Shown piece after piece: positions 33,801 to 59,321 of a DNA stretch of 64,000 nucleotides (positions are counted from its first letter, which is position 1; each line of letters begins with the position of its first letter). The translations under genes and the position numbers were made by a program. Source of the stretch: Promethearchaeota archaeon (GTDB lineage: Archaea; Asgardarchaeota; Lokiarchaeia; Sigyniarchaeales; SOKP01); assembly GCA_048937405.1 (NCBI GenBank), contig JBHLNF010000003.1, forward strand, positions 216,624 to 280,623, in the 5' to 3' direction. Below the pieces are notes generated by a model. That model did not search any database. It was not told where the DNA came from and saw only the letters and a list, made by a program, of their open reading frames with translations.

Positions 33801-34133
33801 AGTATAATTTGTGTGACTTACGTCCCAGGTACCCATTTCTGCGGCGAGTAGGGGCATGATCGGCAGAGTGGGATCGCTTAAAGTATAAGTAAATAATGTT
33901 TCCACAACCTGAAAGAGTACATCCATTGATGACTCATCCCAGCAATTTTGGGGATCAATTGTATTGAGTAAGTTCGGTACACCATAAACAAAGGGAATGC
34001 TCGCAGAATCTGCACTAAATAATAAACTTGAATCAATAGCATTTTTGCGATAATCTCTAAAATTAATGAAACCATTTGATAAAGAAAGTAATATTGTTAT
34101 AATTAAAAAAATTGTTTTATACTTTTTTTTCAT
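30834..34133 (-). CDS. Receptor-like membrane protein: signal peptide + SBP family-5 (peptide/nickel-type) ectodomain + Ig-like region + TM + coiled coil + WH + TIR domain
   Basis: MKKKYKTIFLIITILLSLS signal (ATG at 34133; the ORF track extends to 34205). SBP_bac_5-like blocks (DPQNCWDESSMDVLFQVVETLFTY, VTFHDGSTFDADDVVFSF, GTGPFVYDSY). TM YLVLIIIVVSVGILGLILVSLLVV followed by KKRKPPK. K/E-rich coiled coil. WH-like LQLVDISEKSGIIDETIIENVIQDMIKNKEIQG. TIR-like HNVFISYSTLD...VFVLFCSENSIKSDAVKGEWQ. Confidence 0.75.
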   Translation of the reverse strand: MKKKYKTIFLIITILLSLSNGFINFRDYRKNAIDSSLLFSADSASIPFVYGVPNLLNTIDPQNCWDESSMDVLFQVVETLFTYTLSDPTLPIMPLLAAEMGTWDVSHTNYTVNLRTGVTFHDGSTFDADDVVFSFDRQAWLYNFTGLNTGGIPLVRSLYVYPNGTQIIKDVVKVDSDTVRFELNGVYAPFEDLLCYTASSILTDTYYNETGGIVELDGDVVGTGPFVYDSYEEDVEVTLHAYDNYWRGYWGGIDNLVFSEIEDPDARNAALLTGDIHFLKDPVAEFVDMFTDDPDIAVINTGDTGGTFQYLVMNNMLINRTWREAISYAFNYDYLINTTKLGYAIRMKSPIPMGFKYSNWTFPVPIYNLTKARIIMQSMGYGEGFNLDDDAEWVAATETSPFRTFNYSYNIGSELREDVYTMLIRDLKKIGIRVTDAGSDLITLTSKMFEWNGYTRNHLELLLVGWGPDYNDASDFINPLFTNRSEASNIAQYDGYLEAGYAGRDPENINDNVQLLMEQALITPDGPAREVMYDRIQELLINDSAHVWAYCLKVIFAHHVALTGFLPNVLNWPYFYTCQWAPERNLFIEVTDSNFSLDEFNLTYSVYNKTNHGISDATFQMWWNGSDVSSNVQNLGGGTYFTTFEPITVEPGEEPILLNMTISANGYSDKYFELELAVDPLTLSKGTPGDGKNYLVLIIIVVSVGILGLILVSLLVVSKKRKPPKVKPSAEAPIEKKTKEMIKQEAKVDKYYNKATSLIDTANKFAQKQEYSDAIETLNQAQKQIKEAKEIVKNYNLIEYKEKIKSNKTQIKTTIAYYQIKIDEQKVKEKKTKTEEELQERMSFVDSLIKANELDKAIENLTEIQNEAQTFELIDLVNAAEEKILICKKSQVETINRIKQTILTLGAKFTRLQLVDISEKSGIIDETIIENVIQDMIKNKEIQGEYFSSSKALALEAAVLIPKEEIMAKHNVFISYSTLDTDYFQVSRIVRRLELYPEIDQVLFWEVDSKQNIVEFMEETLKKTNVFVLFCSENSIKSDAVKGEWQSAYQMVKKGLMKIIPVYEDEDHIPRLLWQMLNVKFTKDDFEGFIQNLYEEILR

Positions 34134-34715
34134 AAATTTGACCCTATTTTTTGTTATGATTATTTTAGATAGAAATGTATAAAAACATTTTTGTCTAAAT
34201 TTCAAAACTAGAAAGTTGACCTGAAAAAACCAACGTTAAGAGATTGAATCGTTAAGAGATTAAATAAAGAGAGACATAACTATTAATTTGTAGTTATTAC
34301 TGTAGGAGTGCAAATAGTAATAACCAATATCTGTCATATTTTTAAAATATATGGAAATATTTTCGAATCATTTACTGGACATCATTATTTATACTTTGCT
34401 TGTATTTTATTTTAGATATTGCAATATCTTTAATGTTTTAATATAGTTCACTTAAACAACTTACTGTTTTTTAAATTACTAAATCTACAATCTTAATAAC
34501 ATATTAAGAGAAGATTTTTAAAGAAATCTAAAGCAATTTAAAATGATAATTCAATATTGGTGGTGAAAAATGATGATTCATTGTCATGAAATGAAAGATG
34601 GAGATATATATAAAAGTAAATAATCAAATATAGAATGTTATGAATGGTGAAACTTTTATTATCTTATTTGAATTATAAATAATTAATTTAATTTTCAAAA
34701 CGAAAAAATAAGAAA

Positions 34716-39884: not shown

Positions 39885-40295
39885 GTGGTCAAAGCTATTC
39901 GAGATTTATGGATTCAAAGATTAGATGGAATTGTTATATTTAGTAGAGTTTTTCATCAAAAAATAGAAGATCAACTATTTGGAGCCCTCTTAAGCGCTCT
40001 TAATTCATTTACTCAGGAGATAGCTGATGGAGAATTGACCAATTTTGAGATAAAAAATATTCGCTTTACAATTATCAAAAGAGAAAACCTTTTCTTTATA
40101 GCAAATTCCTCAAAAAAACATAAAGAAAAGAAAATTTTAGCAGAATTGGAGACTATTGCTAAGAGATTCTTAGAACAATATCCTGAAACAAAAAATCATA
40201 ATTGGAATGGATGTATTGATGAATATAAAAACTTCGAAAGTAAAATCACGGATACTTTAGAAGATCCAGTTAAAAAATTCTGGGATGATTTTTAA
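39885..40295 (+). CDS. Small longin/roadblock-like domain protein
   Basis: GIVIFSRVF...DQLFGALLSALNSFTQEI...IRFTIIKRENLFFIANS...ILAELETIAKRFLEQY, a beta-beta-alpha-beta-beta-beta-alpha pattern by eye. GTG start. Confidence 0.35.
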   Translation: MVKAIRDLWIQRLDGIVIFSRVFHQKIEDQLFGALLSALNSFTQEIADGELTNFEIKNIRFTIIKRENLFFIANSSKKHKEKKILAELETIAKRFLEQYPETKNHNWNGCIDEYKNFESKITDTLEDPVKKFWDDF

Positions 40296-40442: not shown

Positions 40443-42101
40443 ATGTCAGATGAGGGTTCACAAGAAGAAAAACCAGTGGGGAGATTAACAGGAAAGACTA
40501 CAACTCATACAGTTACAGCGGTACTTGAGGGTCCTTCGGTTGAAAGGAATAATTATTTAGTGCTTTATGGGGAAAAAGATGAAGAAGGGAAAAGGCAATA
40601 TTATGTATTTTATATTACCGAAATGTGGACAGATGAAAAGGGGCGTATGGCAAAATTGGGAGTACTTGGAGAAAGACCAACAAGGCCTTTTGAGATTGGA
40701 GCAGATATTTTTATGGCAAAAGAAGAGCAAATTTCAAAAATCTTAGGAATCTTTAATCCCCCAGAAGAATCCCTCTCCTTAGGAAAGCTAATTGGTTATC
40801 CATATGAAGTATATCTATTGATTAAAAATTTTGGCAGAATCTTCATTACTGGAAAATCTGGTTCGGGTAAATCTTATACAATGGGAGTATTATGTGAGGA
40901 ATTTCTTAAAAAGGGAATTCCTTTAGTTATATTAGATAGACATGGAGAATATGGCTCATTAAAAGTTGCTGGTGAGGATTTACCAGAGGGAGAGAGTGAA
41001 TTTGTTGATAGAATAATAGAATTTTCTGATTTAAAGAAGAATAAGGGTGGAGATGTTGATATTGAATATTTATTTTCATTAAAACCTTCGGATATTGTTG
41101 CACCTAATCTATGTTGTGTAGTAAATTTAAATGGTATGGCTTTAGAAGTTCAAGAAGCTATAGCAGGAAAATTGTTAAAGAAGTTATATGATGCAAGTAC
41201 AACAAGAGGAATTCCTCCTTTCTACTTATTTCTAGATGAAGCCCACTTATTTGCTGGAAAGAAACAAACAGAAACTTGCGAAGTTGTAAAACTATTTGCT
41301 CAAGAAGGTAGAAAATTTGGAGCAAATATAGTTATAGGTACACAACGTCCTCAACTATTAGATACAACAATCAGAGCTCAAGCAGGAACCTGGGTTGTTC
41401 ATAATCTTTCTGATATAAGGGATATTGGGATTACAATTTCAAGCGCAGAAGATTTAAGTAATGAAAATAAATCAGATATTTCAGGATTAGACAAAGGACA
41501 GGCTATAATCTGTGGAGAAGCTGTTAAAGGAATTCCTTTATTTGTAAAAATTAGAAAGAGAAGAACAAAGCATGGTGGGGTAAGTTTTAATCCTTTAGAT
41601 TTTCTCTCAGAAAATACAGTTGAGGAACTTCAAAAACGTAAGGAACGTCTTTTGGGTGGAAAATCTGCCGATGAACTAGAAACTGGAAAGTCTATGTTTG
41701 AAGAGATGTTGGAACCAAAGAAGGCAACCGATTATTTAGATGAGATTGCGGCTCTTAAAGTAAGAATTCAAGAATTAGAGGATGAGGTCTCACGTCTTAA
41801 AGAAAAAGTAGCAAATGTTAAAGAAGGAAAAGATATTCCGCTTATAGCTACAGATGAAACAATAGAAGAATTGCAAACTGAAATAAACGTATGGAAAGAG
41901 AAATACAATTTCTTGAAAGAAATGGCGGAAAAAGGCGGAGATGACATGATTCCATTAGATGAAGATAGTGAACAATTATTAGATTTGAATAATCGAATTA
42001 TCGAACTTGAAGCACAAGTTAAAAAATATAAATCAAGATCAGATGATGCTTTGATACTAGCAGAAAAATCTATAGCTGAACTTAAGAAGCGGAAGAAATA
42101 A
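40443..42101 (+). CDS. HerA/FtsK-like (DUF87) ATPase with HAS-barrel N-terminus and ~150-aa C-terminal coiled coil
   Basis: Walker A ITGKSGSGKSYT, Walker B FYLFLDEAHLF, GRKFGANIVIGTQRPQ. Heptad-rich E/K tail (LKVRIQELEDEVSRLKEK..). Confidence 0.75.
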   Translation: MSDEGSQEEKPVGRLTGKTTTHTVTAVLEGPSVERNNYLVLYGEKDEEGKRQYYVFYITEMWTDEKGRMAKLGVLGERPTRPFEIGADIFMAKEEQISKILGIFNPPEESLSLGKLIGYPYEVYLLIKNFGRIFITGKSGSGKSYTMGVLCEEFLKKGIPLVILDRHGEYGSLKVAGEDLPEGESEFVDRIIEFSDLKKNKGGDVDIEYLFSLKPSDIVAPNLCCVVNLNGMALEVQEAIAGKLLKKLYDASTTRGIPPFYLFLDEAHLFAGKKQTETCEVVKLFAQEGRKFGANIVIGTQRPQLLDTTIRAQAGTWVVHNLSDIRDIGITISSAEDLSNENKSDISGLDKGQAIICGEAVKGIPLFVKIRKRRTKHGGVSFNPLDFLSENTVEELQKRKERLLGGKSADELETGKSMFEEMLEPKKATDYLDEIAALKVRIQELEDEVSRLKEKVANVKEGKDIPLIATDETIEELQTEINVWKEKYNFLKEMAEKGGDDMIPLDEDSEQLLDLNNRIIELEAQVKKYKSRSDDALILAEKSIAELKKRKK

Positions 42102-44041: not shown

Positions 44042-45082
44042 ATGAGTCAAAACCAGATATTGTGTGTTACTTACTTTGATCAAGTAATTGGCCCTAGTTT
44101 TCTTTATTCCAGTGAACCGTTAATTGAATCCATTGATATTCCCGATATTAATAGGATCCTTGAATTTAATGAAGAAGAAGGGACATTCATTTTTGCATAT
44201 AGAAAATATCAAACGGTAAATCATATTTTTTATATAGATTCTGATTTAGCACGAGGAGGAAGAGAATTAATGATGATTTCATATATGATCAAGACTGCTA
44301 TCTTTAAAGATGAAATTGTAGATGTTTTCAAGTATTTGGACTCGAAAGGACCAATTTTGGAGGATTTTGCCTTGGAGGTTAAAAATATAAAAGATCTAAC
44401 CTCCTTCTTACATGAGAAGAAGAGTGGGTTGACTGGTGATTTTTTGCTAGAACTCGCTAATAATAATTTAAAGAGCATATTTTTGGAAATTTTTAATAAA
44501 TACTTTGCAAAATTAGCTCCTAAATACCGATTAGAAACCCCAATTAAAGATAGACGTCTGATCAAGAAAATATTTATTGTTGGGGCTCCAAGAGTAGGAA
44601 AGACTACATTTTTGAAAAATATTGAATTAATTCAATTTTTGAATATAAAAAGAAATGATTTACCAAGTAGAATTTTTGAAGTAGTTGTTGAAAACATTGA
44701 TATCTTAGATTATGATCCTAATTCAAGTGAGTTTGAATGTAAGGAATTTGAAAATTTAGAAAACTGTGTAAATTTCTCACAAGGTTTTATTCTCCTTTTT
44801 GATTTATCTGATAAGCATTCAGCATTAAGAACAAAAGAAATTTTTCAAATTGTCGATAATACACGATTGGAAATGCAAAGACAATTAGCACCAATTTTAA
44901 TAATTGGAAATAAATTCCACAGTGAGAAAGAACTTGATCCAAAATTTATTAATGAAACCTTTGAAATTGAAAAATTAAAAGAACTTGGAGTTAAAATTAA
45001 TTATATTCCCATAAATATTTTGAAAGAAGATGAAAAAATGATGAATGCTTTACGATGGCTAATAATTAATATATTAGAGTAG
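44042..45082 (+). CDS. Longin/roadblock-like N-domain fused to a degenerate Ras-superfamily GTPase domain
   Basis: C-half: P-loop IVGAPRVGKT. No DxxGQ (has DILDYDP). NKxD replaced by GNKFH. No SAK. N-half has an ILCVTYFDQVIGPS.. mixed alpha/beta pattern. Confidence 0.5.
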   Translation: MSQNQILCVTYFDQVIGPSFLYSSEPLIESIDIPDINRILEFNEEEGTFIFAYRKYQTVNHIFYIDSDLARGGRELMMISYMIKTAIFKDEIVDVFKYLDSKGPILEDFALEVKNIKDLTSFLHEKKSGLTGDFLLELANNNLKSIFLEIFNKYFAKLAPKYRLETPIKDRRLIKKIFIVGAPRVGKTTFLKNIELIQFLNIKRNDLPSRIFEVVVENIDILDYDPNSSEFECKEFENLENCVNFSQGFILLFDLSDKHSALRTKEIFQIVDNTRLEMQRQLAPILIIGNKFHSEKELDPKFINETFEIEKLKELGVKINYIPINILKEDEKMMNALRWLIINILE

Positions 45083-45830: not shown

Positions 45831-46919
45831 ATGTCTGTCGAATATGGTGGGCAGTTTTTTAAAGTTATTAATAAAAAAAGTTCGCTAATTCTTGATTTAA
45901 GTAATCAAGGAATAAGAGATATATCTGAAATTAAGGGGCTTGATAATCTTGTAAATTTAAGATATCTTAATCTTAATAAAAATCAAATTACTGAAATTAA
46001 GGGTCTCGATAATCTAAGGATATTAGAGACTTTATCACTAGAAAACAATAATATTTCCGAGATTAAAGGTCTTGATAATTTAAATTTATTACAGCATCTG
46101 TTACTCAATGGAAATAATATTACTGAGATTAAAGGTCTTGGTAATCTTTCAAGTTTAAAGAGAATTGAACTACAAGATAATCCAGTTAGGGCTTCTGCAA
46201 AAGAGATGTTTGGAAGATATTGGTCAAATCCACAACCTATGGTAAAATATTGTCAACAAAAGGTTCCAGAGATTAGAGAACATGAAAAAGTTAAAAAATC
46301 AAAAGAAGAAACAATTCAATACCTCAAAAATTTACCATCTATATATGAGGAAATAACATTTGAAGAAATTAGCTTAAAAACAGGCTATAGTAAAAGAGAA
46401 CTTAAGGCTTTAACTGAAGATTTAATTTTAAAAGGAGATATACCAGGGTCAATTAGAGAAAATATTATAATATTTAAGAAAGAATTATTAACGGAAGCTC
46501 TGCAAGAAGAAACTATTCCCATAGAAAAACAAAGTAAAAAAATTTTTGTAAGTTATGCTACAAAAGACGCGGAATTATTCAAAATAAAGGAAATCGCAAA
46601 AGGTCTTAGAATTTATGATGAGATAGAGGAGGTTCTTTATTATGAAGCAGAATCATATGATAATTTTGTTAAATATATGAACGATAATCTCGGTAGATGT
46701 GATGTGGTACTCCTATTTTGCTCTCCAAATTCATTAGAATCTGGACCAGTTGAAAAAGAGTGGACTGCTGCGGATGCAATGAACAAACCTATTATTCCAG
46801 TATTTATAAGAGCGGATCATATTCCTCCACTTTTAAAATCAAGGTTAGGTGTTGAATTTGATACTTTTAATATGGAAAAAAATATTGAAGAGATTTATAG
46901 GATAATAATGAAAAGATGA
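45831..46919 (+). CDS. LRR (4 repeats) + winged-helix module + C-terminal TIR domain protein
   Basis: LRRs N.ItEIKGLDNL..L. WH-like ITFEEISLKTGYSKRELKALTEDLILKGDIPGSIRENIIIFKK. TIR-like KKIFVSYATKD...CDVVLLFCSPNSLESGPVEKEW...PIIPV. Confidence 0.75.
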   Translation: MSVEYGGQFFKVINKKSSLILDLSNQGIRDISEIKGLDNLVNLRYLNLNKNQITEIKGLDNLRILETLSLENNNISEIKGLDNLNLLQHLLLNGNNITEIKGLGNLSSLKRIELQDNPVRASAKEMFGRYWSNPQPMVKYCQQKVPEIREHEKVKKSKEETIQYLKNLPSIYEEITFEEISLKTGYSKRELKALTEDLILKGDIPGSIRENIIIFKKELLTEALQEETIPIEKQSKKIFVSYATKDAELFKIKEIAKGLRIYDEIEEVLYYEAESYDNFVKYMNDNLGRCDVVLLFCSPNSLESGPVEKEWTAADAMNKPIIPVFIRADHIPPLLKSRLGVEFDTFNMEKNIEEIYRIIMKR

Positions 46920-49912: not shown

Positions 49913-52105
49913 TTAAAGATTTAATTTTTGTTTCCATATTTTCATAGATAATTTTAATTCTTCTCTTTCTGGTCGACTTAAGATTTCAGGATTGCTTTTA
50001 AGTTCAGTGCTAGTAGAATGAATACTTTTCAATATACTACTATAACCTTCCAATTTAACAAATTCATTTTGAAATCTTTCTAATGCTAATGAGATTTCTG
50101 TACCGGTCATATTATCCATATTGTTAACAATTTCATCAAATTTATTTGATAAAATTACCGCCTTAGGTGCTTCAGTTGTGTCTTTTTCTTCAGGAGGAGT
50201 AACACCTTCTTTAGGGGGAATAGTAATTGCTGGTGTCGATACAAAAGGTTCTTCTTTTAATGGTTCTTCCAAACCAGGTTTTTTTATAGTTCGAATGATT
50301 TCTTTTCGAGCTCCTACCCAAGCATCTTCAAGTATGGGGACAAAAATTTTGATATGCTCCTCAATTATACTCCCAATTCCAGCAATTTCTGTCACATCTT
50401 CTCCTCGAAATTCTGTTTTTGAAAGCACACAAAGGATAACTTCTTCATAGTCTTTATTAATCCCCCATAAATTTTGTAAAGCTCGATTTCTATAATCAAC
50501 GTTATCCATCTTATCCATTTCTTGCATAATTTGATTATGTTCATAACTTGTCGTATCTATATATGTAGCAATTCTGAAGTTTATTCGGGATGGTCTGGCT
50601 TTAATTGCTTCAATATCAATATCAGAAAGATTTGGTGCTACTATTAAAACTCGCATCTTGGCTTTTAATATTTCCTCAGTTATGTGAGCTTTCGCACTTT
50701 CTGGAGAACGAATAAACCAGATATCTTTCATAGTGAAACCCCTCTTACCTTTAGCTTGATCCCAAAATTCTCTAGTGGTTATTTCGCTGACTTCTAACCT
50801 TCTCAAAATATCCGATAGTGTATTATCTAGTGTATCCACAATTCCTTTTGAGAAAATATCTCTAATATTACCAAATGATTGAAATATACCTCCAGAAAGG
50901 CCATCAATTCTTTCTTCAGCTAACTTTACTGCTTTATTAAAATTATCAGAAATTTCTCCAAAAACTTTCTCTTTATCTTCCCCTGATTTAGCAGTTATAC
51001 TTTCGACATTTTTAACCGCATCTGTTAATGAGTCTTTCATTTTTGCTATAATTTCTGTATTAATTCCTTCTGTTGCTTTTTTTAACTCATCAGCGAAAAC
51101 TGTTTGACTTACACTCAATTGAACGTTAAGATTATCGGTAATATCTTTTAAACGATTTTCAATAACTTTATCAATTACATCACCTACAGCTTGTTGAATT
51201 ACTCCTAAACGTAATTTCTGTAAATTATCCGTTACTGTTTTTTTAATATCCCCAAATTGATTTTTTAGATCAGCAACTTGATTTCTGATTATTTGAGATG
51301 TTTTCGTATTAAGATTTTCAAATTGTTTTGTTAAAGAGCTAATTTGATCATCTGGGAGAGTTTTAGAAAGATCTCCTAACTGAGAAATATCTTCAGTTAT
51401 ATTTCTTATTTGATCGATTGCTGAAATAGTATCATCAAATTCTTTTTGTTGAGCGTGGATTTGAGAGAGCATTTTTTCCTTTAAATCTGACATTATCTCA
51501 GTAGAATCTTTAACTTTTTCCATATCTTGTGCTTCTGTTTCAAGTTGAGCAAAGGATTTTTCTAACTGCTTAGGTATAGTGGATTTTATATCTGAGATAT
51601 ATGAATAAAAATTCTTTAATTGTGCTATTAGAGCCGCGTATGGAGGTAAAGCTTGATAGTGAGGAGTTGCACCAATAATTTCCTTGAATAACCCTTTTTC
51701 AAGAAATTTATCTGCAATTTTTTTACATTCTTCTTTAGGTTTGTTAATGAGAATCGCCATTTCTCCAATAGAAACTGCCTCTCGTCCAGTGGTTCGAAAA
51801 TATAGCTCAATTTCTTCATCTGAAAGATCTATTTCACTTAAAACTTGTCTGGTTAACTCTTTTGAATATTCAACTTGCTCTTCCTTTTCTATAACATCTT
51901 TTATTTCAAAATTCTCAACTTCTAAATATTGATTTATAAAGACTGTTAATTTATGAGGTGGCTCACCATGAACATCCTCTTTTTTAATTGGAAACTTTTT
52001 TATATCTCTGTATTGATCAACCGAAATTGGAAATTTGATTTCTTTTAAACAGATTTTACATGTAACTGCAACATCAACTACATCTTTATCTTTAAATAAG
52101 TACAT
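49913..52105 (-). CDS. TrmB-like wHTH protein with a ~300-aa inserted coiled coil and TrmB-C/PLD-like C-domain
   Basis: LSDEEIELYFRTTGREAVSIGEMAILINKPKEECKKIADKFLEKGLF (TrmB-type wHTH). Long heptad region. C-terminal MRVLIVAPNLSDIDIEAIK.. block. N-terminal CKIC..H motif. Confidence 0.45.
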   Translation of the reverse strand: MYLFKDKDVVDVAVTCKICLKEIKFPISVDQYRDIKKFPIKKEDVHGEPPHKLTVFINQYLEVENFEIKDVIEKEEQVEYSKELTRQVLSEIDLSDEEIELYFRTTGREAVSIGEMAILINKPKEECKKIADKFLEKGLFKEIIGATPHYQALPPYAALIAQLKNFYSYISDIKSTIPKQLEKSFAQLETEAQDMEKVKDSTEIMSDLKEKMLSQIHAQQKEFDDTISAIDQIRNITEDISQLGDLSKTLPDDQISSLTKQFENLNTKTSQIIRNQVADLKNQFGDIKKTVTDNLQKLRLGVIQQAVGDVIDKVIENRLKDITDNLNVQLSVSQTVFADELKKATEGINTEIIAKMKDSLTDAVKNVESITAKSGEDKEKVFGEISDNFNKAVKLAEERIDGLSGGIFQSFGNIRDIFSKGIVDTLDNTLSDILRRLEVSEITTREFWDQAKGKRGFTMKDIWFIRSPESAKAHITEEILKAKMRVLIVAPNLSDIDIEAIKARPSRINFRIATYIDTTSYEHNQIMQEMDKMDNVDYRNRALQNLWGINKDYEEVILCVLSKTEFRGEDVTEIAGIGSIIEEHIKIFVPILEDAWVGARKEIIRTIKKPGLEEPLKEEPFVSTPAITIPPKEGVTPPEEKDTTEAPKAVILSNKFDEIVNNMDNMTGTEISLALERFQNEFVKLEGYSSILKSIHSTSTELKSNPEILSRPEREELKLSMKIWKQKLNL

Positions 52106-52138: not shown

Positions 52139-53392
52139 TTAAAATTCAACTTTTTCAGGATAGGTTATTTCTAGCAAACTTAATGCTTTTTTTGCAATTT
52201 CATATGTAATATCGCCATCAGTTTCTTGACTTTTATATGCTGCTCTTATTTTAGGAAGTAAATATTCTGGAAATATTATTAAAGGTTTTATATCTGTTAA
52301 TAGACAAATCCATTTTCTATCATTCTTATCTATAACTTCTGTGATAATATTTAAATTTTTTAAATCCTCTAATAATATCTCGGTTACAGCAAACTCTGAG
52401 AATATTTTTGGAATTTTATCCAATGGATAATGATTGTGCCTCATTAATACAAAAAAATCATAAACATCAGGATTTAAAAGAATTGAGGCAATTTTTTTTG
52501 TTTCTTCTAATGTTTCTGTATATGGATCGTAATTTGAAAAGAAATCTACAACTTTTTGTCTGTAGAGTGGTAAGAGTTCATTATTAGTTTCACTAAAATG
52601 GTTTAATAAATTTTCATTAGGGATACGACTAAGTATTAAGTCTTTTACAAGAAATAAATATTCTCCTTGGTGAGTAATTTGTCCTGTTTTCTTATTTTTC
52701 TCTCCTTTTATCCAATCTCTACGAATAATATTCAATTCCAAAAACGGTTGAAGTAAAATGTCAATATTCACATTAGTACTCATTTTATCTAAAGTTTTTT
52801 TTATTTCCTTTTTTGATGTTGGTGATTCCCGTAATATCTCTAAGATTTTTAATCTCTCAGGACTATTATAGATCAATGCTGTTTTTTGAAGTTTATCTAA
52901 ATTGGATAATCGATCTATTTGAAATATGGTGAATTTTAATTCGTTTTTCAATCTTATATTAATATTTTCAATTAAGGAGAGTTGTTTTGAGTTTCTCGCT
53001 CTTGTTAATTTATCAAAAATAGTATCTAATCGATCTCCCATTGTTTTAATCAAATCTTCAAAAATCGCTATTTCATCATCTAATTCAAAGATAGAAATTG
53101 CGAGATATTGGGTTCCATCAGCAACCTGCTTAAAATAAGACATTACTTGATATGGTGTTTCTTTTAACCTTCCTTCATAATAATTGCTATAACTATATTT
53201 TACACTGGAAAGTCCTGTAGTGTGCTGATAAAAAATCGCAAATATGTCATTTTCATCAAGCAATTCTGAAAAATTATTTTCATCATACTCATCTTCCCGA
53301 AATACTAATTGATTCGGTTCGAATTCTGGTTCTATTTCTCCCGTCTCTTTCTGATTTATTTTGAACTGAAATGCTAATATTCCTTGGATCAC
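52139..53392 (-). CDS. Hypothetical protein: longin-like N-domain + ArsR-like winged helix
   Basis: RLKILEILRESPTSKKEIKKTL wHTH-like segment. The N-domain resembles that of 44042..45082 by eye. 34-nt gap to the downstream gene suggests an operon. Confidence 0.35.
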   Translation of the reverse strand: MIQGILAFQFKINQKETGEIEPEFEPNQLVFREDEYDENNFSELLDENDIFAIFYQHTTGLSSVKYSYSNYYEGRLKETPYQVMSYFKQVADGTQYLAISIFELDDEIAIFEDLIKTMGDRLDTIFDKLTRARNSKQLSLIENINIRLKNELKFTIFQIDRLSNLDKLQKTALIYNSPERLKILEILRESPTSKKEIKKTLDKMSTNVNIDILLQPFLELNIIRRDWIKGEKNKKTGQITHQGEYLFLVKDLILSRIPNENLLNHFSETNNELLPLYRQKVVDFFSNYDPYTETLEETKKIASILLNPDVYDFFVLMRHNHYPLDKIPKIFSEFAVTEILLEDLKNLNIITEVIDKNDRKWICLLTDIKPLIIFPEYLLPKIRAAYKSQETDGDITYEIAKKALSLLEITYPEKVEF

Positions 53393-53858: not shown

Positions 53859-56800
53859 ATGACATCTAAAATAATTAAAAGAAAGGATTTTTCAGTTTTT
53901 AGTATTATTTGTATGATCATGTTATCATCCTTATTCATTTTATTAATATATACTAATCAGAATATTGATTCATCTTTTAATGATAAAAATAAAGAATCTG
54001 AATATAACAATTTTAGAAATCCTCAAATGTCAACAGCTAAAGAGAATCTTACTGCGATATGGTATAAGAATCCTGGTTTTGATGATCCAATTGAACCAAC
54101 ATGGTATTCAAAATTTGAAGGTGACCAATCAGATATAAATGCAACTTCTGGTTCTGGTCAAGCAAATTATGAGATTCTAGGTGAGACGAGAACTTACTCT
54201 CGAATAAACGGCACACCAACGTCGACATATTGGAAGAATGTTACAAATCCCGAACGTCCCGCTTTACCTGATTTTAATGAAATCGATAATTATGGTTGTC
54301 ATGTATCTCATACTTGGATAGATCCTGACGATCCTTCTCAGATGGTAAGTGTACATTGGGATAGAAATATTACTTTACCAGTTGATATGTCAGATTATTT
54401 TATTACCTCAGTTTCATTAAGTGCAGAAGTAAATGCTACAGTTACCACTGTTGGCAGTGGTCCTCTTTATCGAGGTGGTGTAGACGTTGCTGGTGATAGT
54501 ATTGATACAGCTAGCCCTGATTTTGCAAAAGAATATGATTATGTAAGGTTTTATGTATTGATTTCAGATTTAGAAAAAAATGATGTATTTGAAGCGGCTT
54601 ATAATCAAACAACTAACCTAGGGCAAGACCCAGTTCCAGGTCCGAGTATCCCTAGTATATCAGATACAGTAATTTTTACAAGACCAGAAGAAAGTTTAAT
54701 ATCATTTTTAAATACTGTTTTAGAGAATGATCCTAACCATGAATCATTTACATTGTCATTAGGAATGAGAATATTTTGTGCTGATAATGGACAAGGTGAT
54801 CGAGATACATGGGACTCGCTTCGATTTAAATCTTGCAATTTTTCATTTACTTATGAGAAAAAGATTGATGAATTTACGACTGGATCATGGTGTCAAGATG
54901 GAGATAAAATAACTCAGGTCGTTAATGACACATATGTTACTATTAATGATGCGAAATTGAATTTTAAGTATAAAATAAATGAAGATTGGACCGATTTATC
55001 TCCAAACTCAGAAATTAGAATTTATATAAATAACAATAAACTTCCTGAGGTACTTAATCTTAGTAAAGCTACTACAAGCTTTCAATTAGCTAATAACCTA
55101 GGAGGTTTCGATGTATATGATATTATTAACTATGATATTTACCTAAATCTCTCTATTCAAGTTTATCTTGCAGAGAATTTTCATTTAGGCACTAAGAAGA
55201 TTATATCGATAGATGATGTTTATTTGAATATTTCCTATACAGTTGAATTTCCCGAATATCAAACAGATATTGAAGTATATTTTAATAATAACAATATAAC
55301 AGCCAATCCTATATTCGAAATATCAGCTAAGACAGACCTAAATATCACAATTAAATATCCTGATGAATTTGGGATTCATATTCCTCAAGCAGTTGTAAAT
55401 TTAATTGGAAATTTAACAGCTACCTTAATTGAGGATGATCTCCGAGGACAATATACAATTATTCTCAATACTGAAGATTTACCTATAGGACAAATATACT
55501 TTAATATGTTAGCACACAGAATAAACTATGAAGCTCAACAGCTTGGTGCCCTATTAATTATTTCTAAAATAGAGACAGAAAAGATACAGTTATTTATAGA
55601 TGGCGAAGAAAAGACAACTTTACCATCTGTGGACGTTCCTCTGCAAAAGTCATTAAATATAACAGTTAAATATAAAGATACCATAGGAGATCATGTTCCT
55701 GGTGCAACAATTCAATTAGTTGGCGATGGAGTATTTGAAAATTTAGATGAATCTTTAGAATTTGAGCAATATTCAATAATACTTAATACAACATTGAAGT
55801 TTAGATTAGGTCTTAATGATTTATCAATCAATGCTCAAAAAGATAGATATGAGGAACAAAGTGCATATCCAAAAATTACGGTACGAAAGATCAATACCCT
55901 AATTACACCCGTTTCTGGCTCCAATAATATAAATATTAAGCCAGGACAGAATGCGGATATTAGTGTAATTATTAATGATGCAGACTTTAATGAAACCATT
56001 AAAGGAGCAATAGTTACTTATACTTGGGAATTTGGAAATGGTATTTTAACTGATGATAATAATGATGGTATATATGAGGAAATTTTAGAAAATGTACCTT
56101 CTGGTACGCATTCAGTTAATATTACCGTTTATAAAAGCGATATTTATAATTTTGAAAGTTATGAATTCATAATCTATGCTTTGAGACCAAAACAGGATTT
56201 ACTTCTTTTCCAAATATTATTGATAATAGGTATTATAGTTTCAATAGGAATAGGAGGTTATCTTTATGCATATCAAAAAGTATTAAAATATCCTAAACAA
56301 GTCAGAAAAGTTCGTAAGTATCGAAAAACCCTAAATAAAAAACATGCACCTAATATTAGTATAAATGACCGTGAAAAAAGTTTTAATTCTGAGTATAAAC
56401 AAGAAGTAAAAAATTCATCAAAATTTATAAGAGGTAAACCTTCAATTAAAAAACCTGAAGAAAGTGGAAAACAAAAAAAAAAATCGGAAAAATCTGACAT
56501 AAAGCTAGGATCTAAAAATGAGGTCGACTCAAATATAAAAATGAGTGATGTAAATCTCAATAACCAAAAATCATATCATAGAAAAACTTTAAAAAGGCTA
56601 AGAAAATTAAAGTTTGGAATTCTTAAATTAAAAAAATTCCAAAAATTCATGTCAATTTTAATAATAACAATTTTACTATTCAATTTTCTTATTGTTAGTC
56701 ATTATCTCTACCAAAATTCAAAAAATTCATTCTATTCCCAAAAAGATGATTTTAAAGATAATCTTGGTATATCAGGACAAAAGATTTATAGTAATATACA

Positions 56801-59321
56801 ATGGCTAAATGATACATCCTTTGAAAATAATTTAATTCCAAATCCTTTCTGGTTTGAATCCTATGGAAATATAGGGGATAATTCTGATGTTAGCGCAAAA
56901 CTAGAATATACTGATAACTATGCAAATTTGACTGTTATAGGAGAAAACCACACTTTTTCGGATATCTCAGGAACTCCTCTTATTAGTAATTGGATAAGAG
57001 TTAATAATCCTGACTATCCTGATCTTCCAGATGATTCTGATATTACTGCAGAAGGATGTTGGGTTACCCATTACTGGAATGAAAGATCTGATCAATCTCC
57101 GAGTGTTCATTGGGATCAAAATGTTACAGTAGATCATGATATGTCAGATTACATAATTACATCAGTAAACTTAAGTGTTCTAGTCAATGCTACGGTTCAA
57201 GGTAATAACCCAGAAGGAGGAGGAATTGATATTGATGGTGATCCTAGTGTTTTTGGAGATACATATGATTATGTTAAATTTTATGTATTATTTTCTGACA
57301 TACCTAAGAATAAAGTATATGAGGTTGCTTCTTATCAATCAACAGACTTGGGGAATGATAGCGCCGGAACATGGGATTATCTTTATGATACCTATTTGGA
57401 TAATGTACCTCAAGATAGATTAATTGAATATCTCACTTCAGTCTTAAATACTGATAATAGAAACTTCACAATTACCTTAGGTATAAGGTTATGGTGTGAA
57501 GATAGTTCAACTGATGATATAGATAATTGGGATGAGCTATTAATTAAAAGTTGTAATTTTTCATTTACATATGAGAAAAAAATAAATCGATTTACAACTG
57601 TATCATGGAATCAAGATGCCCAGAAAATTAGCGATATCAGCCATTTTGAGAACGAAACGATAGTTCTTAATGAAGCAATACTTAATTTCACATATAGAAT
57701 TGATCCCAATTGGACCCAATCATCAATTAATTCTAAATTAAGAATTCTTATAAATAATAATCCCCATACCGAGACAATTGAATTAAATACTACTAATGGA
57801 GATTTCCAGCCAGCAAAAATCGAAGGATTTGATGTCACTCATCTAATAATCGATGATATTAATGTGTCAATACAACTTTTTCTAGCAGATGAATTTAGTT
57901 TAGATCATAATATTACTATCTCCATAGACGATGTTGAGCTTAATATCACTTACACAATAATTTCTCCTCCTCAACTAACTGATTTACAGTTATTTTTAAA
58001 TGGTGACCCTACCCCTAGTTTAGAATTATATGTAGGGCAGCAATTAAATATCACAGTGAAATATGTAAATAAAACGGGTGAGCATATTCCCAACGCCACG
58101 ATTTCACTTTCAGGTAATTTTACTGGAATTTTGGTAGAAAATAAATCATTGGAACAATATACTATCATTTTAGATACAGAAATAGAAGACGTTGGTGCCA
58201 ATTTCCTCACGATTATAGCTTATGCTGAAGATTATGAAATACAAGAAATATATCCTGCAATAACAATAAAGAAATATCCCTCGCAAGGTCTACACGTAAT
58301 CTTAAATAATGAAAATGTGACTACTGATCCGCAATTTGAACTCAACCTTGATGAAGAATTAAATATCACAATAAAATATCTAGATTCAATGGGCAATTTT
58401 ATACCTAATGCTAGTGTAAGATTAATATCCGAAGGAATAACAAAAGATCTAAATGAAAGCTCAATATTCGATCAATATAGTACTATTATTAATACATCTG
58501 ATAGATTAAGAGTTGGTCTGAATTATTTGACAATTGAAGCTCAACACCAAATTTATGAAACTAACTCTTCAATTATAAGGCTTTATATTAGAAAATTTAA
58601 CGTAGATATTTCTCCAGTATCAGGATCAAATAGAATAGAAATAAAAGCAGGTGGAGATATCAATTTAAGAATAAATTTGAATAATACTGATATTGAAGAA
58701 TTAGTGAAAGGTGCTATTGTTACTTTTGTTTGGGAGGAAGGAGATGGGATTCTAACGGATTCTGATAATGATGGTATTTATGAGGGAACTATTGAAGATA
58801 TTCCAGAAGGTGCTTTTACTATTACTATCTCAGGTTTTGCAGGTGATGAATATGATATTCAAAATTATGATTTAACTATCATAGCAATAGGAGAATCCCA
58901 TCCTGAAACAACATTATTTCATATTTTATTCATTCTGTCTGTTATATTAATAATTGGACTACTAAGTTATCTAATTGCTTATCAAACCTATTTGAAATAT
59001 CCAAGACAAGTACGAAAAGTAAGAAAATATAGAAAAACTTTGAAACGTGAACGAGATCCTAGTGTTTTTATTATGGGGCGAGAAGATACCTTTAAAAAAC
59101 TCTATAGGAAAAATTTAATTTTTCTTCATATTCCTAAATTGAAAAGCCCCCCTTCAAAATCCTCATCTCAGGAAAAAAAGAAGACTTCTGATAAATTAGA
59201 AGCTGAAAAGGAAACCCAGAAGGTAGAATCTGAAAAATTAATTGAAAAGTCTCTAGAAAAGAAAGAAGAATTGGACAGAATAGTTGATAAATCACCAGAT
59301 GAAAATTCCAAATCTGCTTAA
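53859..59321 (+). CDS. 1820-aa surface protein made of two homologous halves (4 TM, two sequon-rich ectodomains)
   Basis: Each half has an N-terminal TM, a ~330-aa domain ending FSFTYEKKI(D/N)xFTT, Ig-like repeats (LNITVKY..G.HIP.A), TDxxNDGIYE, a TM, and the basic motif LKYP(K/R)QVRKVRKYRKTL. Confidence 0.6.
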   Translation: MTSKIIKRKDFSVFSIICMIMLSSLFILLIYTNQNIDSSFNDKNKESEYNNFRNPQMSTAKENLTAIWYKNPGFDDPIEPTWYSKFEGDQSDINATSGSGQANYEILGETRTYSRINGTPTSTYWKNVTNPERPALPDFNEIDNYGCHVSHTWIDPDDPSQMVSVHWDRNITLPVDMSDYFITSVSLSAEVNATVTTVGSGPLYRGGVDVAGDSIDTASPDFAKEYDYVRFYVLISDLEKNDVFEAAYNQTTNLGQDPVPGPSIPSISDTVIFTRPEESLISFLNTVLENDPNHESFTLSLGMRIFCADNGQGDRDTWDSLRFKSCNFSFTYEKKIDEFTTGSWCQDGDKITQVVNDTYVTINDAKLNFKYKINEDWTDLSPNSEIRIYINNNKLPEVLNLSKATTSFQLANNLGGFDVYDIINYDIYLNLSIQVYLAENFHLGTKKIISIDDVYLNISYTVEFPEYQTDIEVYFNNNNITANPIFEISAKTDLNITIKYPDEFGIHIPQAVVNLIGNLTATLIEDDLRGQYTIILNTEDLPIGQIYFNMLAHRINYEAQQLGALLIISKIETEKIQLFIDGEEKTTLPSVDVPLQKSLNITVKYKDTIGDHVPGATIQLVGDGVFENLDESLEFEQYSIILNTTLKFRLGLNDLSINAQKDRYEEQSAYPKITVRKINTLITPVSGSNNINIKPGQNADISVIINDADFNETIKGAIVTYTWEFGNGILTDDNNDGIYEEILENVPSGTHSVNITVYKSDIYNFESYEFIIYALRPKQDLLLFQILLIIGIIVSIGIGGYLYAYQKVLKYPKQVRKVRKYRKTLNKKHAPNISINDREKSFNSEYKQEVKNSSKFIRGKPSIKKPEESGKQKKKSEKSDIKLGSKNEVDSNIKMSDVNLNNQKSYHRKTLKRLRKLKFGILKLKKFQKFMSILIITILLFNFLIVSHYLYQNSKNSFYSQKDDFKDNLGISGQKIYSNIQWLNDTSFENNLIPNPFWFESYGNIGDNSDVSAKLEYTDNYANLTVIGENHTFSDISGTPLISNWIRVNNPDYPDLPDDSDITAEGCWVTHYWNERSDQSPSVHWDQNVTVDHDMSDYIITSVNLSVLVNATVQGNNPEGGGIDIDGDPSVFGDTYDYVKFYVLFSDIPKNKVYEVASYQSTDLGNDSAGTWDYLYDTYLDNVPQDRLIEYLTSVLNTDNRNFTITLGIRLWCEDSSTDDIDNWDELLIKSCNFSFTYEKKINRFTTVSWNQDAQKISDISHFENETIVLNEAILNFTYRIDPNWTQSSINSKLRILINNNPHTETIELNTTNGDFQPAKIEGFDVTHLIIDDINVSIQLFLADEFSLDHNITISIDDVELNITYTIISPPQLTDLQLFLNGDPTPSLELYVGQQLNITVKYVNKTGEHIPNATISLSGNFTGILVENKSLEQYTIILDTEIEDVGANFLTIIAYAEDYEIQEIYPAITIKKYPSQGLHVILNNENVTTDPQFELNLDEELNITIKYLDSMGNFIPNASVRLISEGITKDLNESSIFDQYSTIINTSDRLRVGLNYLTIEAQHQIYETNSSIIRLYIRKFNVDISPVSGSNRIEIKAGGDINLRINLNNTDIEELVKGAIVTFVWEEGDGILTDSDNDGIYEGTIEDIPEGAFTITISGFAGDEYDIQNYDLTIIAIGESHPETTLFHILFILSVILIIGLLSYLIAYQTYLKYPRQVRKVRKYRKTLKRERDPSVFIMGREDTFKKLYRKNLIFLHIPKLKSPPSKSSSQEKKKTSDKLEAEKETQKVESEKLIEKSLEKKEELDRIVDKSPDENSKSA

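What the first reader, a model, noticed from the sequence alone, without database searches (positions are those of the whole stretch)
45831..46919. LRR-WH-TIR protein: cytosolic sensor-like paralog of the same module family
This 362-aa protein has four 22-aa LRRs and a linker containing a conserved Cys motif (VKYCQQK; compare VEYCQYR in the 28552 gene). It then has a WH-like segment (ITFEEISLKTGYSKRELKALTEDLILKGDIPGSIRENIIIFKK) and a TIR-like domain (KKIFVSYATKD..VVLLFCSPNSLESGPVEKEW). LRR plus TIR is the plant-TNL and animal-TLR combination. Here it occurs without an NB-ARC/STAND ATPase and without a TM. The WH-TIR C-terminus is clearly paralogous to that of the SBP-TM-TIR gene 12 kb away, which suggests one signalling family with interchangeable sensor heads.
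Basis: partly seen in the sequence, partly recalled or inferred. Interest (0 to 1): 0.7.

Follow-up and report, generated by a model that had tools for sequence, protein, structure and literature searches.

The report
Asgard archaeal LRR–winged-helix–TIR protein
This is a real, conserved gene of a Loki-type Asgard archaeon that joins a leucine-rich-repeat binding domain, a PCI-like winged helix and a TIR domain with an intact catalytic glutamate, and it belongs to a large TIR family, found here only in Asgard archaea and not treated in any paper found, in which the same TIR is attached to many different "head" domains.

Summary
ORF 45831..46919 (+) encodes a soluble 362-aa protein with three domains:
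- an SDS22/internalin-type LRR;
- a winged helix whose closest profile is PCI;
- a C-terminal TIR_2-type TIR.

The TIR is not a look-alike fold. It passes Pfam's threshold, and the model matches solved bacterial TIRs. E310 aligns with the catalytic Glu position of SARM1 and is kept in 245 of 248 family TIRs.

The protein is already in NCBI (MFX1371888.1, "TIR domain-containing protein", Promethearchaeota MAG). No paper I could search treats the family.

The family has about 500 cluster representatives at 50% identity (phmmer E ≤ 1e-10). A motif scan of 185,579 species genomes found it only in Asgard MAGs. Its heads include LRR, Ras/Roc GTPase, ubiquitin, SPFH, TPR and WD40.

The LRR–WH head also occurs on an adaptin-appendage-like output, in the paralog at 28534.

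There is no STAND ATPase, no conserved neighbour gene, no PADLOC hit and no nucleotide-reader gene. The LRR and TIR are under purifying selection.

Most likely it is a ligand- or partner-gated TIR NAD+-cleaving sensor. That mechanism is inferred, not shown.

I rate it a new variant of a known kind, of moderate interest.

The parts
45831..46919 (+). Complete gene: 362-aa LRR-WH-TIR protein (identical to NCBI MFX1371888.1)
   Evidence: ORF. Exact match in the protein collection. dN/dS is 0.18 against the 80%-identical ortholog.
45831..45878 (+). N-terminal beta-strand cap (aa 1-16, MSVEYGGQFFKVINKK)
   Evidence: Strands E2-5, E8-11 and E13-15 in the AF2 model. The V-E/K-Y-x-G motif is conserved in LRR-headed relatives.
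45879..46217 (+). LRR domain (aa 17-129): three canonical 22-aa repeats plus an irregular first repeat and a capping last repeat; SDS22/internalin class
   Evidence: Pfam LRR_4, LRR_8 and LRR_14. Internalin models in NCBIfam. Foldseek SDS22 6obn at rmsd 1.0 A and 39% identity, plus InlB and the C. tepidum Roco LRR. Repeat register.
46218..46301 (+). Helix after the last repeat (aa 135-144), read here as the LRR C-terminal cap, carrying the conserved Cys (C141, nt 46251-46253), followed by a disordered linker (aa 147-157)
   Evidence: Helix 135-144 and low pLDDT at 147-152. Translation MVKYCQQKVP. The Cys is conserved only in LRR-headed members.
46302..46478 (+). Winged-helix domain, PCI-like (aa 158-216)
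   Evidence: H158-170, E174-176, H177-184, H188-200, E206-209, E212-215. Pfam PCI E=0.0098 here, E<=0.01 in 26 of 52 relatives, and above cutoff in the 28534 paralog and in P0064. Mean net charge is about 0 and the third helix is about -1.2 on average, so it is not a typical DNA reader.
46479..46535 (+). Disordered, fast-evolving linker (aa 217-235)
   Evidence: pLDDT below 50 at aa 219-232. dN/dS is 1.3 and identity 37% against the ortholog.
46536..46916 (+). TIR domain (aa 236-362), subtype A of the Asgard family
   Evidence: Pfam TIR_2 at 54.4 bits, cutoff 28. Foldseek BtpA/TcpB, BtTir, PdTIR and Hydra TRR-2 at TMt 0.55-0.70. 62-68% identical to the TIRs of relatives with other heads.
46758..46760 (+). 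Codon of E310, the putative catalytic glutamate (S304-G-P-V-E-K-E310-W)
   Evidence: Translation. Glu in 245 of 248 family TIR instances. Aligned by HMMER with the Glu of the WVHKE motif in SARM1/TIR-1 and of VKKE in 9m0n.
30834..34205 (-). Paralog: SBP_bac_5 - TM - coiled coil - WH - TIR (subtype B; TIR at nt 31220..30837)
   Evidence: Pfam SBP_bac_5 and TIR_2. BLASTP 34% over 218 aa, E=4e-27. tblastn. Subtype comparison.
28534..30717 (+). Paralog of the head: LRR - PCI-like WH - adaptin/COPI-appendage-like domain - helical tail (no TIR)
   Evidence: BLASTP 44% over LRR, cap and WH, E=2e-41. Pfam PCI 31.9 bits. AF2 model and Foldseek gamma-COP, beta2-adaptin and alpha-adaptin appendages, E down to 1.5e-11.
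44042..45082 (+). Upstream neighbour: unknown 165-aa head plus an Arf/Ras-like GTPase. The same head is fused to this TIR in another Asgard protein (P0054).
   Evidence: Pfam Arf. 56% identity over 169 aa to the N-terminus of P0054, E=4e-60. Synteny is kept in the close relative L001.

Best explanation
**What it is (shown).** It is a soluble, stand-alone, single-chain protein of a Loki-lineage Asgard archaeon with three folded domains:
- an SDS22/internalin-type LRR solenoid with its own N- and C-terminal caps;
- a PCI-like winged helix;
- a C-terminal TIR_2-type TIR that keeps the catalytic-position glutamate.

It is one member of a TIR expansion found here only in Asgard archaea. In this family an almost invariant TIR, usually preceded by the WH, is placed behind many different protein-interaction or regulatory heads.

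**How it most likely works (inferred).**
1. The concave face of the LRR binds a conserved partner, most likely a protein.
2. Binding changes the oligomeric state of the protein. The PCI-like WH and the TIR itself supply the self-association surfaces.
3. Juxtaposed TIR domains form the composite active site around E310.
4. The active site cleaves NAD+, either to make an ADP-ribose-derived signal or to lower NAD+.

LRR, GTPase, ubiquitin-like, SPFH, TPR, WD40 and periplasmic-SBP heads would then feed different inputs into one common TIR output.

The evidence leans towards a conserved cellular partner rather than a fast-evolving viral one. It does not decide this.
For: **Domain identities**
- Pfam TIR_2 and LRR_4 score above their cutoffs.
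- The AF2 model has pLDDT 88.4 and three well-folded domains.
- Foldseek matches SDS22, InlB and the Roco LRR, and the BtpA, TcpB, BtTir and PdTIR TIRs.
- PCI is matched by 26 of 52 relatives at E<=0.01, and above cutoff in two of them.

**Catalytic residue**
- E310 is invariant in alignment A1 and is Glu in 245 of 248 TIR instances.
- HMMER aligns it with the WVHKE Glu of SARM1/TIR-1.
- F239, S241, Y242 and D246 of the betaA-alphaA motif are also more than 92% conserved.

**One output, many inputs**
- The same TIR, 55-70% identical, sits at the C-terminus of proteins of 197 to 2712 aa.
- Heads include LRR, Ras/Roc/Arf, ubiquitin, SPFH, TPR, WD40 and HhH.
- Multi-TIR proteins exist.

**Selection**
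- dN/dS against the 80% ortholog is 0.10 for the LRR, 0.14 for the TIR, 0.50 for the WH and 1.3 for the linker.
- Synteny is kept in that relative.

**WH.** It is near-neutral or acidic, so it is more likely a protein-protein module. PCI-type WH domains are oligomerisation modules, as summarised in PMC10936438.
Against: - No activity was or could be tested.
- The Trp of the usual W-x-x-x-E motif is missing. The motif here is SGPVEKEW, with the Trp after the Glu.
- Sequence similarity to proven NADase TIRs is weak: SARM1/TIR-1 E=0.4 and Cat1 E=0.86. Single-sequence phmmer finds no solved TIR.
- No gene for a reader of TIR products (SLOG, Macro, SAVED, SIR2) occurs among the Pfam-scanned ORFs of at least 120 aa (all but two that overlap other genes).
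- No gene recurs next to the family in 43 loci.
- The very high TIR conservation across paralogs would also fit a pure interaction module.
- dN/dS rests on one pair of sequences.
- The LRR ligand is unknown.
Confidence: 0.45

Rival explanations
1. Non-enzymatic adaptor. The TIR is a homotypic or heterotypic docking module, as in TLR-MyD88. It brings the many differently headed paralogs into common assemblies. These may be tied to the Asgard ESCRT, GTPase or trafficking-like machinery, and the PCI-like WH would be a second assembly element.
For: - TIR conservation is unusually high (55-70% identity) among paralogs with unrelated heads.
- There is no partner effector or reader gene.
- The same LRR-WH head is used by an adaptin-appendage protein of the kind linked to Asgard ESCRT.
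- Heads are enriched in trafficking and regulatory modules: small GTPases, SPFH, ubiquitin.
- The upstream GTPase gene shares its head with a TIR protein.
Against: - The catalytic-position Glu is kept in 245 of 248 TIRs, together with the betaA-alphaA motif. By general knowledge, scaffolding TIRs such as MyD88 have lost this Glu.
- No direct link to ESCRT genes is seen in this window or in the 43 loci.
Confidence: 0.25
2. Antiviral abortive-infection sensor. The LRR recognises a viral protein and the TIR then depletes NAD+ or makes an immune signal. This would be a STAND-less analogue of bacterial TIR defence proteins and of TNL/TLR receptors.
For: - By general knowledge, the prokaryotic TIRs with a catalytic Glu that have been characterised act in defence or virulence. 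The solved structural neighbours found here are BtpA/TcpB and BtTir.
- Weak cross-hits to ThsB_TIR occur in 20 of 52 and 43 of 129 relatives, and to Thoeris ThcB4.
- A lineage-specific expansion with variable repeat heads is typical of immune receptors.
Against: - No PADLOC model matches this or its paralogs.
- The gene lies among housekeeping genes rather than in a defence island.
- It is syntenic in a relative at dS of about 0.6.
- The LRR is under strong purifying selection, dN/dS 0.10.
- There is no ThsA-like or other effector nearby.
- It was not found in viral contigs.
Confidence: 0.2
3. Transcription-type regulator. The winged helix binds DNA and the LRR and TIR modulate it.
For: One relative is named 'DNA-binding Lrp family transcriptional regulator' by JGI (P0037). 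Weak hits to Rpc34 and Cdc6 WH models occur in a few members.
Against: - The WH has a mean net charge of about 0, and its third helix is net negative.
- Its best profile is PCI, a protein-protein WH.
- The WH is the least constrained folded domain, dN/dS 0.50.
- Many family members lack a recognisable WH.
Confidence: 0.05

Closest known systems
Bacterial TIR_2-type TIR proteins (BtpA/TcpB, BtTir, PdTIR, AbTir-like NADases)
   Same: - Same Pfam family (TIR_2).
- Same fold: Foldseek TMt 0.55-0.64.
- A Glu at the position that HMMER aligns with the catalytic Glu of SARM1/TIR-1.
   Different: - 16-22% sequence identity, and not detectable by single-sequence search.
- The motif is S-x-P-V-x-K-E-W instead of W-x-x-x-E.
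- It is fused to an LRR and a PCI-like WH.
- It is archaeal and not virulence- or defence-linked by context.
Thoeris ThsB / type III ThcB4
   Same: A stand-alone TIR-containing sensor idea. There are weak profile cross-hits.
   Different: - Below the ThsB_TIR cutoff (13.2 bits, cutoff 21.2).
- No ThsA or other reader gene nearby.
- No PADLOC hit.
Animal TLRs and plant TNLs (LRR + TIR receptors)
   Same: They combine an LRR recognition domain with a TIR output.
   Different: - No TM or ectodomain (TLR) and no NB-ARC (TNL).
- The order is LRR-WH-TIR.
- The LRR is the 22-aa SDS22/internalin class.
- The TIR is TIR_2-like. PF01582 is hit by only 3 of 52 and 6 of 129 relatives.
- It is most simply an independent assembly of the same domains.
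SARM1 / TIR-1
   Same: A TIR with a catalytic Glu, regulated by N-terminal repeat and oligomerisation domains. E310 aligns with the WVHKE Glu.
   Different: The similarity is marginal (E=0.4). SARM1 uses ARM and SAM domains, not an LRR and a WH.
Asgard multidomain adaptin-appendage / PCI / TPR proteins linked to ESCRT-I/0 (Makarova et al. 2024, PMC10936438)
   Same: - The head of this gene (LRR plus PCI-like WH) is 44% identical to that of the 28534 protein.
- The C-terminus of the 28534 protein folds as an adaptin/COPI appendage.
- The same heads (LRR, TPR, WD40, PCI) are used with either output.
   Different: - This gene carries a TIR instead of the appendage domain.
- The whole-word terms TIR, LRR and 'leucine' do not occur in that paper's main text.
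- No ESCRT gene is adjacent.
ROCO proteins (LRR-Roc-COR)
   Same: The best whole-model structural hit is the C. tepidum Roco LRR. Asgard relatives join the same LRR type to Roc/Ras GTPases (P0024).
   Different: This protein has no Roc or COR domain.

Membership tests
TIR domain superfamily (Pfam TIR_2, PF13676) | Profile match above the curated threshold | tested here: met
   54.4 bits against cutoff 28, E=2.2e-14, aa 238-345. All 52 and all 129 relatives also match.
TIR domain superfamily (Pfam TIR_2, PF13676) | Flavodoxin-like alternating beta/alpha fold that superposes on solved TIR domains | tested here: met
   AF2 gives strands 236-241, 265-270, 292-297 and 321-325 with intervening helices. 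Foldseek matches BtpA 4lzp, TcpB 4lqc, BtTir 7uxr, PdTIR 3h16 and TRR-2 4w8g at TMt 0.55-0.70.
Catalytic (NADase-type) TIR | Conserved glutamate at the catalytic position of the S-x(5)-E motif that follows strand betaC | tested here: met
   E310 is Glu in 245 of 248 family TIRs. It aligns to the WVHKE Glu of SARM1/TIR-1 and to VKKE of 9m0n.
Catalytic (NADase-type) TIR | NAD+ cleavage or cyclase activity that depends on that Glu and on self-association | not testable with these tools
   This needs an enzyme assay of the wild type against E310A.
SDS22/internalin-class LRR | Tandem 22-residue LxxLxLxxNxIxxIxxLxxL repeats forming a curved solenoid | tested here: met
   Repeat register. Pfam LRR_4. 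NCBIfam internalin models. Foldseek SDS22 at rmsd 1.0 A over 98 columns.
PCI domain (PF01399) | Profile match above threshold, with helical-repeat N-terminal part followed by a WH | tested here: inconclusive
   - This protein scores 16.5 bits against cutoff 22, and only the WH part of the profile (positions 26-77 of 84) is matched.
- Paralog 28534 scores 31.9 bits and P0064 scores 26.2 bits, both above cutoff.
- 26 of 52 relatives score E<=0.01.
- eIF3c scores E=0.008 in the PDB profile search.
- The WH topology is clear. No TPR-like helical part precedes it.
Thoeris (ThsB sensor + ThsA effector) | ThsB_TIR-type TIR | tested here: not met
   13.2 bits against cutoff 21.2, E=0.12. No PADLOC model matches.
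Thoeris (ThsB sensor + ThsA effector) | Adjacent ThsA-type effector (SIR2 or TM plus Macro/SLOG) | tested here: not met
   None among the Pfam-scanned window ORFs of at least 120 aa. No recurrent neighbour in 43 family loci.
Toll-like receptor architecture | Extracellular LRR, a single TM helix, cytoplasmic TIR | tested here: not met
   No hydrophobic segment: the maximum KD19 is 0.68. The N-terminus folds as a beta-strand cap rather than a hydrophobic leader.
NLR/TNL/Avs-type STAND receptors | Central NB-ARC, NACHT or other STAND NTPase | tested here: not met
   No NTPase domain in Pfam or NCBIfam. None among the top 25 families in 129 relatives.
Asgard adaptin-appendage multidomain proteins (PMC10936438) | Adaptin/COPI appendage-like Ig plus platform domain | tested here: not met
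   The feature is absent from this gene. It is present in the head-paralog 28534: Foldseek gamma-COP appendage E=1.5e-11. A Vps28-C-like tail was not detected by Pfam.

The most novel reading that the evidence does not exclude
Asgard archaea may run a housekeeping, non-immune TIR signalling network. Dozens of sensors would converge on one conserved catalytic TIR output, either an NAD-derived messenger or TIR-TIR assembly. Their heads are eukaryote-like: LRR, small GTPase, ubiquitin-like, SPFH, WD40 and TPR. They share a PCI-like winged helix with adaptin-appendage and ESCRT-linked adaptors. This would be a prokaryotic forerunner, or a deep analogue, of eukaryotic TIR adaptor and SARM1-type signalling, wired to the proto-endomembrane machinery.
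Probability: 0.18. Interest if true: 0.85.

Novelty: new variant of a known kind. Interest (0 to 1): 0.55.

Why it matters
TIR domains are the shared currency of innate immunity in animals, plants and bacteria. Their presence and role in the archaeal relatives of eukaryotes have hardly been examined. The surveys of Asgard defence and of Asgard eukaryotic signature proteins that I could read do not treat this family.

This gene shows three things:
- Loki-type Asgard archaea keep a conserved, probably catalytic TIR under purifying selection.
- They combine it with the same interaction heads that they use for adaptin-appendage and small-GTPase proteins.
- They do so outside defence islands.

If the TIR is active, the family offers a tractable set of single-chain sensors for asking two questions: what NAD-derived signalling does in an archaeon with eukaryote-like cell biology, and whether TIR signalling predates eukaryotes as a cellular rather than purely antiviral system.

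If the TIR turns out to be a scaffold, or an ordinary abortive-infection toxin, the finding reduces to a lineage-specific domain shuffle.

Tried and rejected
1. **Flavodoxin or CheY-like look-alike instead of TIR.** Rejected by Pfam and Foldseek.
2. **Known defence system.** PADLOC gave no hit for this gene, for either paralog or, meaningfully, for the neighbour. NCBIfam gave only a 16-bit ThcB4 cross-hit.
3. **Conserved operon or partner.**
   - Contexts of four orthologs differ, apart from synteny in the 80% relative.
   - Clustering ORFs from 43 family loci found no recurrent neighbour beyond generic Fe-S and methyltransferase genes.
4. **Link to a metallo-beta-lactamase (possible cyclic-nucleotide phosphodiesterase).** An MBL gene lies downstream in the window, in L001 and in L002. 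The window and L002 MBLs are only 25% identical, so this is coincidence.
5. **TIR-signal readers in the window.** Pfam scans of all but two overlapping ORFs of at least 120 aa found no SLOG, Macro, SAVED or SIR2.
6. **DNA-level tandem repeats in the LRR.** None found, so the repeats are old.
7. **RNA genes.** No tRNA and no Rfam feature in the window.
8. **Viral origin.** No relative in IMG/VR contigs.
9. **Deep conservation argued from 'Hod-', 'Hermod-' and 'Prometh-' labelled orthologs.** Abandoned, because those proteins are about 100% identical, so the labels are unreliable.
10. **Link to the glycosylated solute-binding protein of P. syntrophicum (PMC11284389).** Nothing ties it to the SBP-TM-TIR paralog.
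11. **Literature.** Nine full-text searches and several papers gave no description of an Asgard WH/PCI-TIR family. PDB entry 9m0n, the best sequence match, could not be traced to a paper.
Full report
**Observation.** The window has about 28-30% G+C and no tRNA or Rfam feature. The identical protein is in NCBI as MFX1371888.1, [quoted passage not shown]. NCBI's phylum Promethearchaeota sits in the kingdom Promethearchaeati; I equate these with the Loki lineage and the Asgard archaea from general knowledge. The gene is real. An ortholog with 80% identity has the same length and start, and overall dN/dS is 0.18.

**Anatomy.** Pfam gives TIR_2 (aa 238-345, E=2.2e-14, 54.4 bits against cutoff 28) and LRR_4 (E=3.5e-14). 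It also gives a sub-threshold PCI hit at aa 158-210 (E=0.0098). An AlphaFold2 model built on 52 relatives has mean pLDDT 88.4. It shows these parts:
- an N-terminal beta-strand cap (aa 1-16);
- five LRR strands: three canonical 22-aa repeats at aa 42-107, plus an irregular first repeat and a capping last repeat;
- a disordered linker;
- a canonical a1-b1-a2-a3-b2-b3 winged helix (aa 158-216);
- a second disordered linker (aa 219-232);
- a compact TIR (aa 236-362).

Foldseek against the PDB matches the LRR to SDS22 (rmsd 1.0 A, 39% identity), to internalin B and to the LRR of the C. tepidum Roco protein. It matches the C-terminal domain to the solved TIRs of BtpA/TcpB, BtTir, PdTIR and Hydra TRR-2, with TM-scores of 0.55-0.70 normalised to the target. 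There is no hydrophobic segment and no NTPase domain.

The Cys is conserved only in LRR-headed relatives, including the 28534 paralog. It therefore goes with the LRR head and not with the WH.

**The winged helix.** PCI is the best profile.
- 26 of 52 relatives hit it at E<=0.01, best 5.7e-7.
- The paralog at 28534 scores 31.9 bits and the relative P0064 scores 26.2 bits. Both exceed Pfam's cutoff of 22.
- A family profile weakly hits the eIF3c PCI domain in the PDB, E=0.008.
- Only the WH half of PCI is present.
- The domain is near-neutral and its third helix is net negative. This argues for protein-protein contacts rather than DNA binding.

PCI-type winged helices have been noted as oligomerisation modules in archaeal and Asgard ESCRT-associated proteins (PMC10936438).

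**The TIR.** In the 52-sequence alignment, 14 positions are invariant, among them E310 and W311.
- S304 is conserved in 244, D246 in 241 and Y242 in 238.
- A TIR-only profile finds few solved relatives: an N-terminal TIR of a TPR protein (9m0n, E=9e-6), a bacterial SEFIR (E=0.01), SARM1/TIR-1 (E=0.4) and Cat1 (E=0.86).
- In these alignments E310 pairs with the Glu of the W-V-H-K-E motif. By general knowledge this is the catalytic Glu of SARM1 (E642).
- The usual Trp four residues upstream is absent. The motif here is S-G-P-V-E-K-E-W.

The catalytic position is thus retained under strong constraint, but activity is an inference.

**Family and distribution.**
- A word-indexed search gave more than 1,000 hits.
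- An exhaustive phmmer search with the TIR alone, against 1.84 billion cluster representatives, gave 901 proteins at E<=1e-3, 504 at E<=1e-10 and 131 at E<=1e-30.
- The TIR is mostly C-terminal, in proteins of 197 to 2712 aa. It is sometimes N-terminal or repeated up to four times.
- Heads confirmed by Pfam include LRR (13 of 129 representatives), Ras/Roc/Arf GTPases, TPR, WD40, ubiquitin, SPFH/Band 7, HhH and PCI. The window itself adds a periplasmic SBP_bac_5 plus TM head, in the gene at 30834..34205.
- A motif-based scan of one genome for each of 185,579 prokaryotic species confirmed 43 loci. All are in MAGs that are either labelled Prometh-, Thor-, Hel-, Hod- or Hermodarchaeota or left unclassified ("uncultured archaeon").
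- Every named TIR-bearing protein hit is also Asgard.
- The motif scan sees only members that carry the two motifs used. "Asgard-only" therefore applies to this subfamily as defined.
- No relative was found in viral contigs.
- Some taxon labels are unreliable. Proteins labelled Hod-, Hermod- and Promethearchaeota are about 100% identical.

**Paralogs in the window.**
- The C-terminal 218 aa align with the SBP-TM-TIR protein at 34% identity, E=4e-27.
- The two TIRs belong to different subtypes. Subtype A has LFCSPNAL...KPIIPVF, and subtype B has LFCS[KE]NS...KKGxxKIIPVY. They are about 40% identical between subtypes and 59-77% within.
- LRR heads occur with both subtypes, so heads and TIRs have been recombined or have long diverged.
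- The N-terminal 225 aa (LRR, cap and WH) align with the 727-aa protein at 28534..30717 at 44% identity, E=2e-41. That protein has no TIR.
- Its C-terminal region has 48 homologs. The source names they carry are Asgard taxa or marine-sediment metagenomes, and the domain sits behind LRR+PCI, TPR, WD40, PCI or Clp_N heads.
- That region models (pLDDT 75.6) as an Ig-sandwich plus platform. It matches the gamma-COP, beta2-adaptin and alpha-adaptin appendage domains, with Foldseek E down to 1.5e-11.
- This fits the Asgard adaptin-appendage, PCI and TPR multidomain proteins that Makarova et al. (2024) regard as ESCRT-0-like adaptors.

Both the input and the output are therefore interchangeable around the WH. 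The TIR shares its heads with a trafficking-type module.

The upstream gene 44042..45082 adds a further link. Its 165-aa N-terminal head is 56% identical to the head of P0054, where it is fused to this TIR instead of a GTPase.

**Context and selection.**
- The gene has its own 260-bp upstream spacer and no conserved operon.
- The 80% ortholog is syntenic, with gene insertions between it and the GTPase gene. More distant orthologs lie in unrelated neighbourhoods.
- No gene recurs next to the family in 43 loci.
- The window is mostly housekeeping metabolism plus signalling genes. None of the ORFs of at least 120 aa that were scanned (all but two that overlap other genes) has a SLOG, Macro, SAVED or SIR2 domain.
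- PADLOC recognises none of the three family genes.
- Against the ortholog, Nei-Gojobori dN/dS is 0.10 for the LRR, 0.14 for the TIR, 0.50 for the WH and 1.3 for the inter-domain linker. This is one pair only, with dS of 0.4-0.8.
- An LRR this constrained, in a stable genomic position, looks more like a reader of a conserved cellular partner than like an arms-race receptor.

**Mechanism.**
- Shown: the three domains, their order, solubility, the conserved catalytic-position Glu, the combinatorial family, and the lack of partner genes.
- Inferred: partner binding by the LRR relieves or induces self-association through the WH and TIR. Assembled TIRs then cleave NAD+ at a site built around E310, giving a signal or NAD+ depletion. 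I put this at about 0.45.
- Main rival (0.25): a non-catalytic TIR-TIR adaptor network tied to the GTPase and ESCRT-like machinery. The extreme TIR conservation across paralogs and the shared heads favour it. The near-invariant Glu disfavours it.
- A conventional antiviral abortive-infection sensor (0.2) shares the chemistry. It fits poorly with the context, the selection pattern and the lack of any defence-model hit.
- A DNA-binding regulator is unlikely (0.05).

**Comparison and novelty.** By the tested criteria the protein is a member of the TIR_2 superfamily and of the SDS22/internalin LRR class. It is not a Thoeris ThsB, a TLR, or a TNL/NLR-type receptor, because the defining features were tested and not met. 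Its WH is PCI-like but not a full PCI domain.

The resemblance to TLR and TNL is one of domain content only. At the level of automatic annotation the gene is known as a "TIR domain-containing protein". The family architecture is a different matter. I mean by this the PCI-like WH plus conserved catalytic-type TIR behind interchangeable eukaryote-like heads, found here only in Asgard archaea, with heads shared with adaptin-appendage proteins. I found it in no paper that I could search. That library lacks most subscription journals.

I therefore class it as a new variant of a known kind, with interest about 0.55.

Noticed in passing
window 28534..30717 (+), C-terminal part about nt 29647..30714: This is an LRR - PCI-like WH protein whose C-terminus models as an adaptin/COPI appendage (ear) domain followed by a helical tail. 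Foldseek matches gamma-COP 9qpq_H at E=1.5e-11. The same module sits behind TPR, WD40, PCI and Clp_N heads in Asgard proteins. It fits the ESCRT-linked class of PMC10936438, whose main text does not contain 'LRR' or 'leucine'.
   Followed up: partly
window 44042..45082 (+): This protein is annotated as hypothetical. It has an unknown 165-aa N-terminal head with no Pfam hit, followed by an Arf/Ras-like GTPase. The same head (56% identity) is fused to the family TIR in P0054.
   Followed up: partly
window 30834..34205 (-): This 1123-aa protein has a periplasmic-type SBP_bac_5 domain, a TM helix, a long coiled coil, a WH and a subtype-B TIR. It looks like a transmembrane receptor-style member of the same family.
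   Followed up: partly
window 4479..5009, 5223..5747, 5885..6421 (+): Three tandem Ras/Roc-type small GTPase genes of about 175 aa each.
   Followed up: no
window 20845..21738, 22413..23309, 25977..26882 (+); 26965..27384 (-): Three short (about 300 aa) proteins with an MCP signalling domain, and an orphan HATPase_c fragment. This is a cluster of chemotaxis- or two-component-like parts in an Asgard genome.
   Followed up: no
window 39885..40295 (+): A 136-aa longin-like protein (Fuz_longin_1, E=1.6e-5, just under the cutoff), next to a HerA-like ATPase at 40443..42101.
   Followed up: no
window 53859..59321 (+); 49913..52105 and 52139..53392 (-): Very large or conserved ORFs (1820, 730 and 417 aa) with no significant Pfam match. 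The 730-aa and 417-aa genes are syntenic with the LRR-TIR gene in the close relative L001.
   Followed up: no
proteins P0064, P0067, P0084 (547 aa; loci L011, L014): These family members have two N-terminal domains with weak TIR-like similarity, then a PCI WH and a TIR. They are about 100% identical although labelled Hodarchaeota, Promethearchaeota and Hermodarchaeota, so the taxon labels of these MAGs are unreliable.
   Followed up: partly
proteins P0121, P0136, P0171, P0199: These family members have two to four tandem TIR domains and little else. P0121 is 604 aa with 4 TIRs.
   Followed up: no
window 365..3337 (+): A 990-aa gingipain-type Peptidase_C25 with its propeptide domain, in an archaeal genome.
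   Followed up: no
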